This document shows positions 2,499 through 3,223 of a stretch of DNA of 64,000 bases, piece after piece. How positions within the stretch are numbered: position 1 is the stretch's first letter; the number at the start of each line of letters is the position of its first letter. The notes under the pieces were generated by a model. It did no database searches. It was not told the DNA's origin and was given only the letters and a program-made list of their open reading frames with translations. Source of the DNA: a virus (taxonomy: Duplodnaviria > Heunggongvirae > Uroviricota > Caudoviricetes); the IMG/VR virus record IMGVR_UViG_3300047469_000094. One strand, given 5' to 3'. Both the position numbers and the translations under genes were made by a program.

Positions 2499-2553
2499 TG
2501 TGTTTAGCCACTCCACAACTCGGGGCGTACCCCAAGGCAGGATTCGAACCTGC
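2499..2553 (-). ncRNA. tRNA-like module C (D-arm-like / loop-closed acceptor-like helix / T-arm, permuted order); candidate Y-RNA-like element
   Basis: Minus strand reads T-arm GCAGG-TTCGAAT-CCTGC, then CTTGGGG-TACG-CCCCGAG (7-bp helix with one G-U), then TT + D-arm-like GTG..GAGTGGCTAAA..CAC. Confidence 0.45.
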
Positions 2554-2644
2554 GTAAGCTTGCGCTGCCGGTTTGTAATAACGATCAGTCTACGGCCCGT
2601 TCTGGGTGTTGAGCAAAGTTTGCATTGCTAGGGGTTGGTCGGAT

Positions 2645-2701
2645 GCTCTCCCAACTGAGCTACTGAACTCCCGAAGGTGCTCAGGCTGGACTCGAACCAG
2701 C
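2645..2701 (-). ncRNA. tRNA-like module B (permuted T-arm / acceptor hairpin with UUCG loop / D-arm); candidate Y-RNA-like element
   Basis: Minus strand: GCTGG-TTCGAGT-CCAGC, CTGAGCACC-TTCG-GGAGTTCAG (9-bp helix, one mismatch), TA, GCTCAGTTGGGAGAGC. 7-bp flank pairing GTTGAGC/GCTCAAC at about 2608-2614 and 2731-2737 suggests a ~130-nt RNA. Confidence 0.5.
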
Positions 2702-2932
2702 GACAGTCTGAGGATAACCTAACAATTACGGCTCAACGTTTGTAGCGATGGAGCGATTTGAAACGAGGAGCGGAACCGGTGCAGTCTAAGAAGATCCGAA
2801 TTAAGAATCTATCTGCCAAGCGACGATACTTACCCGAACACAATGCCGGGCCTAGTAATCAGGCTTGGTGAGCGCTTGCCGATCCCTATTTGAAGCGGAG
2901 TGTAAGAACAAGTTATGGACGTGGAGTAAGCT

Positions 2933-2988
2933 GCTCTACCAACTGAGCTACTCTCCCCGCAAGTGGGAGAGGCAGGACTCGAACCTGC
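2933..2988 (-). ncRNA. tRNA-like module A (permuted T-arm / perfect 7-bp acceptor-like hairpin / D-arm); candidate Y-RNA-like element
   Basis: Minus strand: GCAGG-TTCGAGT-CCTGC, CTCTCCC-ACTTGCG-GGGAGAG, TA, GCTCAGTTGGTAGAGC. 8-bp flank pairing GTAAGAGC/GTTCTTAC at about 2902-2909 and 3027-3034 suggests a ~133-nt RNA. Confidence 0.55.
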
Positions 2989-3214
2989 GACCAGCCGATT
3001 AAAAGTCGATAACCCACATACCGTCGGCTCTTACGTAAAACATTAAATCTCGTGCAAAGTGAATCTTATGTCCTCCGGATTACAATCCAAATTTATAACG
3101 GAGAACGATGCGGCACGAGAAGTTTTAAGCAAGTTAATAGTCCTGGGGTCATTAGCAGTAACCCAGACGACCTTCGGCTCAATACGGTAAAGTGTAACAC
3201 TCTCCCGCACTATT

Positions 3215-3223
3215 GTTATACCA
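3215..3223 (-). promoter_or_regulatory. extended -10-like promoter element (minus strand TGGTATAAC, followed by conserved AATAGTGCG box)
   Basis: Member of a recurrent motif family; lies upstream (in minus sense) of the tRNA-like module array. Confidence 0.4.

What the first reader, a model, noticed from the sequence alone, without database searches (positions are those of the whole stretch)
2499..3223. Three tRNA-like modules in permuted order (T-arm, loop-capped acceptor helix, D-arm): candidate Y-RNA-like partners of Rsr
The region is ORF-free in all six frames. It carries three copies of canonical T-arm (GGTTCGAnTCC) and D-arm (GCTCAGTTGG.AGAGC) motifs on the minus strand.

In all three copies the T-arm comes first. 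It is followed by a 7-9-bp helix whose strands are mutually complementary and capped by a short loop (CTCTCCC-ACTTGCG-GGGAGAG; CTGAGCACC-UUCG-GGAGTTCAG; CTTGGGG-TACG-CCCCGAG). The D-arm follows the helix.

No ordinary tRNA can be assembled from these parts. Taking them in standard order gives non-complementary acceptor strands and about 90-250 nt between D-arm and T-arm. No anticodon arm is present.

The topology is that of a tRNA whose acceptor stem is closed and whose ends lie where the anticodon stem would be. That is the architecture reported for bacterial YrlA-type Y RNAs that bind Rsr. Modules A and B also have 7-8-bp complementary flanks, consistent with ~130-nt RNAs. The array lies 1.4 kb from rsr and behind a promoter-like element at 3215.
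Basis: partly seen in the sequence, partly recalled or inferred. Interest (0 to 1): 0.9.

Follow-up and report, generated by a model that had tools for sequence, protein, structure and literature searches.

The report
Phage Y-RNA gene array beside rsr
An uncultured phage carries, just upstream of its Ro60/Rsr gene, a promoter-to-terminator block of five small Y-RNA genes, three of them with a built-in tRNA look-alike; this is a clear new example of a known RNA-protein partnership rather than a new kind of system.

Summary
On the minus strand there are three T-arm / loop-closed acceptor helix / D-arm modules. Each sits inside a ~130-140-nt RNA closed by a Ro-binding-type terminal helix. The rsr start (1139) lies 1.3-1.9 kb downstream on the same strand.

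- Only two D-arms are canonical. The third is a 3-bp, large-loop arm of the class-II tRNA type, with a variable-arm hairpin.
- The third RNA runs to 2464, beyond the stated start of 2499.
- The region is not strictly ORF-free (mechanical ORFs up to 90 aa).
- Two further minimal Y RNAs without a tRNA module (3182..3125 and 3118..3050) were missed.

Orthologous units in seven related metagenomic phage loci keep 93-95% of pairs, with 17-23 compensatory pairs each. The tRNA Levitt pair 15:48 switches G:C to A:U.

Rfam YrlA matches two units below its gathering score. No phage Rsr locus I tested reached that score either.

A model built here finds same-strand arrays of such RNAs in many distant Rsr loci, so arrays are common. 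Verdict: new members of the known YrlA-type Y RNA kind.

More novel material lies next door in the same transcription unit: an undescribed ~440-nt pseudoknotted RNA with palindrome-packed hypervariable segments.

The parts
3215..3223 (-). Promoter-like element TGGTATAAC (core GGTATAA 3222..3216) that heads the noncoding unit
   Evidence: GGTATAA occurs 23 times in the window, all on the minus strand, against 5.0 +/- 2.2 expected. The block TGGTATAAC..TGCGGGAGAG is conserved at the same place in all relatives. The generic sigma-70 scan found no match.
3125..3182 (-). Y1: minimal Y RNA with no tRNA module. Terminal helix UUGAGC/GCUUAA, exact GNCGAAG motif (GCCGAAGG), inner stem around GGGUUAC...ACCCC
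   Evidence: Stem/CG...CUU/stem pattern found. Orthologs at the same position in L001-L007 each fold to terminal stem plus inner stem. The same unit type recurs in L077-L081. Formal covariation is weaker than for the other units because of the alignment offset.
3050..3118 (-). Y2: second minimal Y RNA. Terminal helix UCGUGC/GCACGA, then CCG... and ...ACUUUG
   Evidence: Six orthologs: 100% of cells paired, and 10 of 20 pairs show compensatory changes, e.g. UCGUGC/GCACGA against CUGGAC/GUCCAG.
2904..3032 (-). Terminal helix AAGAGC/GUUCUU, V hairpin, T arm 2988..2972, closed acceptor helix 2971..2951, D arm 2948..2933
   Evidence: Rfam YrlA 45.4 bits, E 1.4e-8. R1 model 74.9 bits. Seven orthologs: 94.8% paired, 17 compensatory pairs, 0/500 shuffles reach this, and slid controls give 40-49%. 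The 15:48 pair is G:C or A:U.
2774..2883 (-). 'S' hairpin unit in the spacer between Y3 and Y4: long terminal stem enclosing a conserved internal loop (GCUCAYY... / ...CUUAGAC). One copy here, two in most relatives
   Evidence: Individual folds and covarying terminal stems among copies in L001, L004-L007. Not matched by any Rfam family. The window copy has the least regular stem.
2609..2736 (-). Y4 (module B): YrlA-like Y RNA. Terminal helix UUGAGC/GCUCAA, second stem AUUGUUAGG/CCUAGCAAU, T arm 2701..2685, closed acceptor helix 2684..2663, D arm 2660..2645
   Evidence: Rfam YrlA 36.0 bits, E 7e-6. R1 116.5 bits. Nine sequences: 93.4% paired, 18 compensatory pairs, 0/500 shuffles reach this.
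2464..2600 (-). Y5 (module C): YrlA-like Y RNA whose tRNA module is class-II-like. Terminal helix ACGGGC/GCCCGU, second stem, 5-bp anticodon-stem-like helix ACCGG/CUGGU, variable-arm hairpin, T arm 2553..2537, closed acceptor helix 2536..2519, 3-bp D arm 2516..2500
   Evidence: R1 44.8 bits, E 5e-9. Seven orthologs: 95.2% paired, 23 compensatory pairs, 0/500 shuffles reach this. The D stem covaries GUG/CAC, GCG/CGC, AUG/CAU, and the V hairpin covaries. The 15:48 pair switches to A:U in L006 and L007.
2050..2460 (-). Co-transcribed ~410-nt structured RNA of unknown family: two similar domains, each closed by a long-range helix, an H-type pseudoknot (core 2316..2203), and two hypervariable palindrome-dense segments
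   Evidence: RNAalifold on 9 sequences gives 78 pairs, 28 with compensatory change. Pseudoknot helices: 96% paired, 14 of 21 pairs compensatory. No Rfam match. The R2 model finds it only in the close clade. Palindrome enrichment is 82 against 20 +/- 4.
2021..2048 (-). Intrinsic terminator that ends the noncoding unit (GAAAGCCGACC-loop-GGUCGGCUUUUUUU)
   Evidence: Terminator scan. Conserved at the same relative position in all relatives.
1154..1657 (-). DUF3268 zinc-finger-domain gene between the RNA block and rsr
   Evidence: Pfam PF11672, E 6e-36. Same position in L001-L006; absent in L077-L081.
3..1139 (-). rsr (Ro60 ortholog), first 379 codons; the gene runs off the window start
   Evidence: Pfam TROVE 43.8 bits and Ro60 vWA domain. 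DISGSM MIDAS motif. The identical full-length 499-aa protein P0001 exists. P0001 matches D. radiodurans Rsr 2NVO at E 3e-53 and Xenopus Ro60 1YVP at E 8e-51.

Best explanation
The region is a phage noncoding-RNA operon whose main products are five Y RNAs that partner the phage's own Ro60/Rsr protein.

Transcription starts at a phage-type GGTATAA promoter (3222..3216) and ends at an intrinsic terminator (2048..2021). The precursor is then cut or trimmed into separate RNAs.

Each Y RNA is closed by a terminal helix. Its 5' strand ends in ...GRGC followed by CG(A/U)(A/C), and its 3' strand begins ...CUUG-CYC. This is the bacterial and phage version of the vertebrate GGUCCGA / CUUGACC Ro60 site, and Rsr is expected to bind there.

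In three of the RNAs (Y3, Y4, Y5) the distal end is a tRNA mimic built in the YrlA order: variable region, T arm, acceptor-like stem closed by a loop, D arm. All the nucleotides needed for the tRNA elbow are present (U8, A14, R15:Y48, G18G19, UUCRAxU).

By analogy with Deinococcus, Salmonella and Thermus phage phiLo, the Rsr-Y RNA particle would tether Rsr to an exoribonuclease such as host PNPase. That would remodel or degrade structured RNA during infection. The tRNA-like end would serve as a nuclease-resistant, protein-recognisable module.

Shown here: gene order and strand, the conserved promoter motif and terminator, the secondary structures with covariation, tRNA tertiary-pair covariation, and the Ro60 orthology of the protein.

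Inferred: expression, processing, Rsr binding, and the effector.
For: - Rfam YrlA aligns full-length to Y3 and Y4.
- Three T-arm motifs fall within 450 nt, against 0.21 expected per 64 kb.
- Synteny Metallophos - noncoding block - (DUF3268) - Rsr - RNase H - DHHA1-like is conserved in 11 related loci.
- The same three modules occur in the same order in L001, L002, L004-L007.
- Covariation: 94.8%, 93.4% and 95.2% of cells paired, against 32-49% when slid; 17, 18 and 23 compensatory pairs; 0/500 shuffles reach these values.
- The Levitt pair is G15:C48 or A15:U48 in all 23 sequences, with independent switches in each unit.
- Minimal unit Y2 is 100% paired, with 10 of 20 pairs compensatory.
- The R1 model gives 82 hits in 713 kb of Rsr loci. 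All are on the rsr strand and most lie just upstream of rsr, including in distant phages and cultured actinophages.
- The terminal-helix consensus holds across those hits.
- The protein is a Ro60 ortholog.
- Promoter motif family and terminator.
- Literature: YrlA definition and 22 phages with YrlA (PMC4201824); phiLo Ro60 binds two upstream Yrl RNAs and host PNPase (PMC12135203); abundant ncRNAs lie upstream of an Rsr-like gene in Listeria phage CKA15 (PMC12282133).
Against: - There are no expression, processing or binding data. All sequences are metagenomic.
- Rfam's curated threshold is not reached (45.4, 36.0 and 15.4 bits against 69).
- The exact GNCGAAN0-1G motif is present in Y1 only. 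Y3, Y4 and Y5 keep GNCG but read GCCGACGG, GCCGUAAU and GCCGUAGA.
- Single-sequence folding energies are only modestly better than shuffles (z -0.6 to -2.1).
- The effector is unknown. The conserved neighbours (RNase H, DHHA1-like, metallophosphatase) differ from the bacterial RtcB/RtcA context.
- One phage Ro60-like protein has been linked to countering a defence system rather than to RNA decay (PMC11482910).
Confidence: 0.82

Rival explanations
1. The modules are tRNA-like decoys or processing signals that work independently of Rsr. They might be RNase P/RNase Z punctuation marks for cutting the long noncoding transcript, or baits for host tRNA-binding enzymes or tRNA-targeting defence nucleases. 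Their proximity to rsr would then be incidental.
For: [quoted passage not shown] M. smegmatis YrlA is cut by RNase P (PMC4201824). The window also holds a separate tRNA-like small RNA gene without a proper anticodon loop at 21250..21189, with its own promoter and terminator, far from rsr. The units are packed 6-17 nt apart and must be separated somehow.
Against: Every unit, including the two without any tRNA module, carries the Ro60-site-type terminal helix, and that helix covaries. Across 79 sources the family is found on the rsr strand next to rsr. Decoys for anticodon nucleases would need an anticodon loop, and none is present.
Confidence: 0.1
2. They are permuted or split tRNA genes, or decayed tandem tRNA genes. 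In the first case a functional tRNA is made after circularisation or trans-joining. In the second they are pseudogenes with no function.
For: The order 3' half then 5' half is also the order in permuted tRNA genes (established knowledge: Cyanidioschyzon merolae). Rfam's tRNA model gives weak hits that bridge the D arm of one unit and the T arm of the next (22.7 bits, E 0.066). The window is rich in real tRNA genes.
Against: No anticodon arm exists. Where the loop would be there is a long covarying two- or three-part helix ending in the Ro-type motif. The acceptor strands pair with each other within a module, not across modules, and they covary. Pseudogenes would not keep 93-95% pairing with compensatory changes across phages whose Rsr is only 63-84% identical. 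ARAGORN finds nothing.
Confidence: 0.03

Closest known systems
YrlA-type bacterial/phage Y RNAs (Rfam RF02553; Chen et al. 2014, PMC4201824; crystal structure of the Salmonella YrlA tRNA-like domain, bioRxiv 10.1101/312249)
   Same: Order V - T arm - loop-closed acceptor-like stem - D arm. RNA ends at the anticodon-stem position. Conserved T and D loop nucleotides and 15:48 covariation. 5' GNCG(AA) motif. Encoded within 4 kb of rsr on the same strand. Already reported from 22 phages, sometimes in several copies.
   Different: - The scores are below Rfam's gathering score.
- Both strands of the Ro60-site helix are recognisable. Chen et al. say this holds for Deinococcus and metazoan Y RNAs but not for Salmonella or M. 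smegmatis YrlA.
- The AA of the motif is often replaced.
- One unit (Y5) has a 3-bp, large-loop class-II-type D arm instead of the nearly invariant GCUCAGUUGGUAGAGC.
- There are three such RNAs plus two minimal ones in one promoter-to-terminator unit.
YrlB of Salmonella and metazoan Y RNAs (minimal Y RNAs without a tRNA module)
   Same: Y1 and Y2 are 58-69-nt stem / internal loop / stem RNAs. They carry the GNCG(AA)G motif in the 5' strand and CUUG in the 3' strand of the closing helix, laid out like vertebrate GGUCCGA / CUUGACC.
   Different: There is no detectable sequence homology beyond the motif. Their inner part (GGGUUAY - small hairpin - ACCCC) matches the V region of the neighbouring YrlA-like units. 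They therefore look like YrlA-type RNAs with the T-AS-D block missing.
Thermus phage phiLo Ro60 with Yrl1 and Yrl2 (PMC12135203)
   Same: Phage-encoded Ro60 with several Y-RNA-like genes immediately upstream on the same strand. A CGAA-type motif lies in a stem-bulge-stem RNA. It is proposed to hijack host PNPase.
   Different: phiLo Ro60 is only marginally similar to this Rsr (E 6e-4 over ~150 residues). No tRNA-like module is described for Yrl1 or Yrl2 in the passages I read (0 occurrences of 'tRNA-like'). phiLo has two RNAs rather than five.
Permuted tRNA genes and two-piece tmRNA (circularly permuted tRNA-like domains)
   Same: The 3' half of the tRNA fold is encoded before the 5' half.
   Different: Those genes yield a molecule with a free acceptor end. 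Here the acceptor stem is closed, no anticodon loop can be formed, and the open end is a Ro-site helix.

Membership tests
YrlA-type Y RNA | Conserved T stem-loop (5-bp stem, UUCRAxU loop) | tested here: met
   GCAGGUUCGAGUCCUGC, GCUGGUUCGAGUCCAGC and GCAGGUUCGAAUCCUGC. 100% paired in orthologs.
YrlA-type Y RNA | Acceptor-like stem-loop (AS) between T and D, conserved in structure but not in sequence | tested here: met
   7-9-bp helices. 5-7 of their pairs show compensatory changes in each ortholog set (helix 6; helix 4).
YrlA-type Y RNA | Nearly invariant D stem-loop (GCUCAGUUGGUAGAGC type) | tested here: met
   Met for Y3 and Y4. Y5 departs: it has a 3-bp stem and an 11-nt loop that still covaries and keeps A14, R15 and GG. 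Some Y3 orthologs carry GUCUAAUUGGAUAGGAC, a fully compensated D stem.
YrlA-type Y RNA | 5' motif GNCGAAN0-1G (putative Rsr contact) | tested here: inconclusive
   Exact in Y1 (GCCGAAGG). Y3, Y4 and Y5 keep GNCG only (GCCGACGG, GCCGUAAU, GCCGUAGA). Orthologs alternate between exact and variant forms, and GNCG is invariant.
YrlA-type Y RNA | Compensatory changes at the Levitt pair 15:48 | tested here: met
   G:C or A:U in all 23 sequences, with switches in Y3 (L001, L004, L005), Y4 (L005) and Y5 (L006, L007) orthologs.
YrlA-type Y RNA | Encoded within 4 kb of the Ro60 ortholog on the same strand | tested here: met
   Units lie at 3182..2464 and rsr starts at 1139, all on the minus strand. The same holds for all 82 R1 hits in other loci.
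YrlA-type Y RNA | Score at or above Rfam RF02553 gathering threshold (69 bits) | tested here: not met
   45.4, 36.0 and 15.4 bits. Control: none of 13 phage or metagenomic Rsr loci, including cultured phages Sparky, Beuffert and Sixama, reached it, although R1 finds Y RNAs in them. The threshold therefore does not discriminate for phage members.
YrlA-type Y RNA | Bound by Rsr in vivo; carries tRNA-type modifications (pseudouridine 55, dihydrouridine) | not testable with these tools
   Needs RIP/Northern and modification mapping. Only sequence is available.
Y RNA in the broad sense (metazoan/Deinococcus type) | Long terminal stem formed by the 5' and 3' ends, carrying the conserved Ro60 site on both strands | tested here: met
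   All five units have helix-CG... and ...CUU-helix. The outer pairs covary (helix 1). The consensus holds over 80 hits.
Ro60/Rsr protein (partner) | TROVE HEAT-repeat ring plus vWA domain with MIDAS motif; similarity to solved Ro60 structures | tested here: met
   Pfam TROVE and vWA_Ro60. DISGSM motif. 2NVO at E 3e-53 and 1YVP at E 8e-51.
Permuted tRNA gene | Ends that join to form a 7-nt anticodon loop on a 5-bp stem; free acceptor end after processing | tested here: not met
   The ends continue into 15-25 further base pairs with internal loops and the Ro-type motif. There is no anticodon loop, and the acceptor stem is capped.

The most novel reading that the evidence does not exclude
The whole 1.2-kb promoter-to-terminator unit (3223..2021) may be a multi-RNA operon dedicated to the phage Rsr system. 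Besides five Y RNAs it would encode two RNA families absent from Rfam.

One is an 80-110-nt hairpin with a conserved internal loop (S unit).

The other is a ~410-nt two-domain RNA with a covariation-supported H-type pseudoknot. Its two hypervariable segments are packed with self-complementary hexamers and 10-14-mers (GGUACC, GAGCUC, CUGCAG, CUCGAG, CCWGG-type).

Such palindromes cannot fold back on themselves. One reading is that they are multivalent self-association sites, so the RNA would form homo-oligomers or a condensate, perhaps one that concentrates Rsr-Y RNPs. Another reading is that they act at the DNA level as sites for dimeric proteins.
Probability: 0.3. Interest if true: 0.75.

Novelty: new member of a known kind. 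Interest (0 to 1): 0.42.

Why it matters
Y RNAs with a tRNA-like module were described in 2014, but what the tRNA mimic does is still open. Phage examples are also almost never annotated: none of the three cultured-phage records I opened lists one, and Rfam's threshold missed all 13 Rsr loci I tested.

This locus gives a clean natural comparison set inside one transcription unit. It holds two Y RNAs without the module, two with a class-I-type mimic and one with a class-II-type mimic, all with the same Ro-site helix. That is a useful substrate panel for asking what the tRNA end recruits.

The locus also shows that tandem Y-RNA arrays on the rsr strand are a common feature of phage Rsr loci.

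The adjacent palindrome-rich pseudoknotted RNA is a separate lead that may be new.

Tried and rejected
- Megablast of the first 8 kb against 50,697 phage records found no match. The phage is uncultured. By tblastn against the phage records the best Rsr match is 33% identical and the best PolA match is 42% identical (Salmonella phage Arash).
- The search for related loci with the single Rsr fragment found nothing in IMG/VR. It worked only with an alignment.
- Rfam at gathering threshold found only tRNAs in the window. Rfam at E<=10 gave nothing credible for 1600-2560; RcsR1, STnc and NsiR4 hits were chance or terminator-only.
- Single-sequence folding z-scores are weak and would not have settled the matter. 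The comparative analysis did.
- I considered a hammerhead-like reading of CUGAAGAG...GAAA in the 3' RNA and rejected it by inspection: no stem II, and the motif is not conserved among relatives.
- I considered that the palindromes mark restriction sites the genome otherwise avoids. Rejected: the hexamers present in the window's variable segments are not specially depleted elsewhere, whereas CTCGAG, GGATCC and GTCGAC are absent from the whole window, the segments included.
- MAFFT misaligned the minimal units when all were pooled, so I analysed Y1 and Y2 ortholog sets separately.
- The supplementary tables of Chen et al. and the 2020 Annual Review were not available. I therefore could not count YrlA copies per phage from the literature and used my own model search instead.
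Full report
**What is in the sequence.**
Read on the minus strand, the region holds three blocks of the form T arm, short capped helix, D-type arm.
- The T-arm core GGTTCGANTCC occurs at 2975-2985, 2688-2698 and 2540-2550. The whole 64-kb window has six copies, against 0.21 expected. The other three lie in or next to real tRNA genes.
- The canonical D-arm motif is present only twice in the region, at 2933-2948 and 2645-2660. The third block has GUGGAGUGGCUAAACAC instead.
- ARAGORN finds six tRNAs elsewhere in the window and none here.
- The region is not literally ORF-free. Mechanical ORFs of 43-90 aa overlap it, but stop-to-stop frames are short and are not conserved in frame or place among relatives.

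**Context.**
- The window is phage-like. It carries many tRNAs, PolA, primase, PhoH, NAPRTase and PRPP synthetase.
- It has no close cultured relative.
- The minus-strand gene order is: metallophosphatase (3981..3244), a 1.2-kb noncoding block, a 69-codon ORF, a DUF3268 zinc-finger gene (1657..1154), then rsr.
- rsr starts at 1139 behind an AGGAGA site and runs off the window.
- The rsr product has TROVE and Ro60-vWA domains. It is identical over the 379 residues encoded in the window to a 499-aa metagenomic protein, P0001.
- P0001 matches solved Ro60 structures at E 1e-50 or better.

- With permissive thresholds, Rfam's YrlA model aligns end to end to 2910-3012 (45.4 bits, E 1.4e-8) and to 2621-2726 (36.0 bits, E 7e-6). 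The family's gathering score is 69.
- The third block gives only 15.4 bits.
- The sub-threshold scores say little. None of 13 other phage or metagenomic Rsr loci reached the threshold, including the cultured phages Sparky, Beuffert and Sixama. My own model nevertheless finds clear Y RNAs in those three cultured phages.

**Comparative evidence.**
- Rsr has a clade of relatives at 43-84% identity, all on phage-like metagenomic contigs.
- Eleven loci fetched from the clade show the same synteny: Metallophos, then 0.8-1.6 kb noncoding, then (DUF3268), Rsr, RNase H and a DHHA1-like protein.
- Six distinct loci have the same three modules in the same order.

| Unit | Sequences | Cells paired | Compensatory pairs | Shuffles reaching this | Paired when 3' partners slid |
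|---|---|---|---|---|---|
| Y3 (module A) | 7 | 94.8% | 17 | 0/500 | 40-49% |
| Y4 (module B) | 9 | 93.4% | 18 | 0/500 | 36-45% |
| Y5 (module C) | 7 | 95.2% | 23 | 0/500 | 32-40% |

- Every helix contributes: terminal helix, second helix, anticodon-stem-like helix, V hairpin, T, acceptor-like and D.
- The structures came from RNAalifold on the same alignments, so some circularity exists. They coincide with the published YrlA architecture, and the compensatory counts are large.
- The nucleotide before the T stem (position 48) and D-loop position 15 are G:C or A:U in all 23 sequences. Switches occur independently in each unit. This is the tertiary-pair covariation used by Chen et al. 2014 as evidence for a tRNA-like fold.

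**Anatomy of each RNA.**
- All units share a closing helix: six to nine pairs, then CG on the 5' strand, and CUU (sometimes UUU or CUC) immediately before the 3' strand.
- That is the layout of the vertebrate Ro60 site (GGUC|CGA ... CUU|GACC; established knowledge). It overlaps the bacterial GNCGAAN0-1G motif.
- Y1 and Y2 lack the T-AS-D block but keep the inner GGGUUAY-hairpin-ACCCC element that forms the V region of the tRNA-like units.
- Y2 orthologs are 100% paired, with 10 of 20 pairs compensatory. Y1 is supported by conserved position and individual folds.
- The array is therefore Y1, Y2, Y3 (module A, 3032..2904), Y4 (module B, 2736..2609) and Y5 (module C, 2600..2464).
- Y5 differs from classic YrlA. 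Its D arm has a 3-bp stem and a large loop, and it has a covarying variable-arm hairpin, which is the class-II tRNA pattern (inference from tRNA knowledge).

**Transcription unit.**
- GGTATAA occurs 23 times in the window, always on the minus strand, against 5 expected. One copy sits at 3222..3216, in a block conserved in every relative.
- A strong intrinsic terminator lies at 2048..2021 and is also conserved.
- A second GGTATAA follows at 1991..1985.
- The five Y RNAs therefore lie in one 1.2-kb noncoding unit, separate from the downstream unit that contains rsr. That the RNAs are processed from a common precursor is inference.

**How general the array is.**
- A covariance model built from the Y4 alignment (R1) gave 82 hits in 713 kb of Rsr loci.
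- All 82 are on the rsr strand, and most lie in the few hundred bases upstream of rsr.
- Many distant loci have two to six units, and these mix minimal and tRNA-like forms.
- The terminal-helix consensus holds across the hits.
- Chen et al. 2014 had already reported 355 YrlAs in 254 bacteria and 22 phages, with several per locus in some cases.
- Thermus phage phiLo has two Yrl genes upstream of its Ro60 that bind it and host PNPase.
- A Listeria phage shows abundant noncoding transcripts upstream of an Rsr-like gene.
- So this is a clear but unsurprising new instance of a known kind.

**Mechanism.**
- The best-supported account is that these RNAs bind the phage Rsr through the terminal helix and present the distal module to another factor. 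In characterised systems that factor is an exoribonuclease (RYPER complex).
- The conserved neighbours RNase H and a DHHA1-family protein are compatible with an RNA-turnover role, but this is only context. The size of the DHHA1-like protein resembles NrnA-type nanoRNases; that point is my own knowledge and was not tested.
- A Ro60-like protein of coliphage Bas63 counters the ppl defence system, so an anti-defence role is also possible.
- Rival readings fare poorly.
  - Permuted or decayed tRNA genes: there is no anticodon arm, and strong purifying selection acts on a non-tRNA topology.
  - Rsr-independent decoys or processing marks: even the units without a tRNA module carry the Ro-type helix, and the family tracks rsr.

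**Other content of the same unit.**
- Between Y3 and Y4 lies a hairpin RNA of a third type: a long covarying stem around a conserved internal loop. There is one copy here and two in most relatives.
- After Y5 comes a ~410-nt RNA with two similar domains.
- It contains an H-type pseudoknot whose two helices are 96% paired, with 14 of 21 pairs compensatory.
- It matches no Rfam family, and with my model it is confined to the close clade.
- Its two unalignable segments hold 82 six-base palindromes in 1336 nt across nine sequences. Dinucleotide shuffles give 20 +/- 4, and the conserved parts have 1.0 per 100 nt.
- GGTACC, GAGCTC, CTGCAG and CTCGAG recur in most relatives at different positions.
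- I could not explain these palindromes. They are the most unusual thing in the neighbourhood.

**Verdict.**
- Novelty: new members of the YrlA-type Y RNA kind.
- Interest is moderate.

Noticed in passing
window 2050-2460 (minus strand); L001:6998-7438, L002:4589-5033, L004:4364-4801, L005:4577-5019, L006:2294-2735, L007:3988-4431, L077:3823-4251, L078:5520-5979, L080:5352-5859, L081:1788-2320: A ~410-nt conserved structured RNA is co-transcribed after the last Y RNA. It has two similar domains, each closed by a long-range helix, and an H-type pseudoknot with strong covariation (core 2316..2203). It has no Rfam match and was found only in the close phage clade.
   Followed up: partly
window about 2300-2385 and 2075-2150 (minus strand), and the equivalent unalignable segments in nine relatives: Two hypervariable segments of that RNA read like polylinkers. 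There are 82 six-base palindromes in 1336 nt, against 20 +/- 4 in shuffles. GGTACC, GAGCTC, CTGCAG, CTCGAG and many CCWGG recur at shifting positions. The cause is unknown; candidates are RNA self-association sites or DNA-level protein sites.
   Followed up: partly
window 2774-2883 (minus strand); two copies each in L001, L005, L006, L007 and one clear copy in L004 spacers: A third RNA type lies between Y3 and Y4. It is an 80-110-nt hairpin with a long covarying terminal stem around a conserved internal loop (GCUCAUUUUG / AAUCUAAGAC in relatives; GCUCACC / CUUAGAC here). It is not in Rfam.
   Followed up: partly
window 21189-21272 (minus strand): A stand-alone tRNA-like small RNA gene. A GGTATAA promoter (21272..21266) is followed by a cloverleaf with a 4-bp acceptor stem, YrlA-like D and T arms and only a 4-nt 'anticodon' loop, and then by a GC-rich terminator hairpin. 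Rfam tRNA scores it at 42.6 bits, but ARAGORN does not call it.
   Followed up: partly
whole window, minus strand (23 sites, e.g. 1991, 3222, 8170, 13385, 21272, 50067-51016 cluster): GGTATAA occurs 23 times, all on the coding (minus) strand, against 5 expected. It is evidently the phage's own promoter core. Four sites cluster within 1 kb at 50061-51016.
   Followed up: partly
whole window: CTCGAG, GGATCC and GTCGAC are completely absent from 64 kb (about 15 of each expected). GCGC is four-fold depleted and CTAG two-fold. This suggests selection by host restriction systems. Relatives do carry these hexamers inside the hypervariable RNA segments.
   Followed up: no
window about 1200-1500, 23700-24000 and 37800-38100: There are other local islands of six-base palindromes (8-10 per 300 nt). 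One lies inside the DUF3268 gene next to rsr. They were not examined.
   Followed up: no
L001-L007, L077-L081 downstream of rsr (beyond the window start): Rsr is followed in every relative by an RNase H gene and a ~310-aa protein with weak DHHA1 hits. A metallophosphatase precedes the RNA block in the window and in ten of the eleven fetched loci (not L079). This differs from the bacterial rsr-rtcB-rtcA context.
   Followed up: no
L082 (Mycobacterium phage Sparky) 3498-3630; L083 (Streptomyces phage Beuffert) 1475-1610, 2564-2700; L084 (Gordonia phage Sixama) 3606-3673, 6336-6432, 6590-6717, 6798-6926: Cultured actinophages with annotated Ro-like proteins have unannotated YrlA-like RNAs interleaved with their tRNA genes (and, in Sixama, just after a tmRNA gene). 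None reaches Rfam's YrlA gathering score, so routine annotation misses them.
   Followed up: partly
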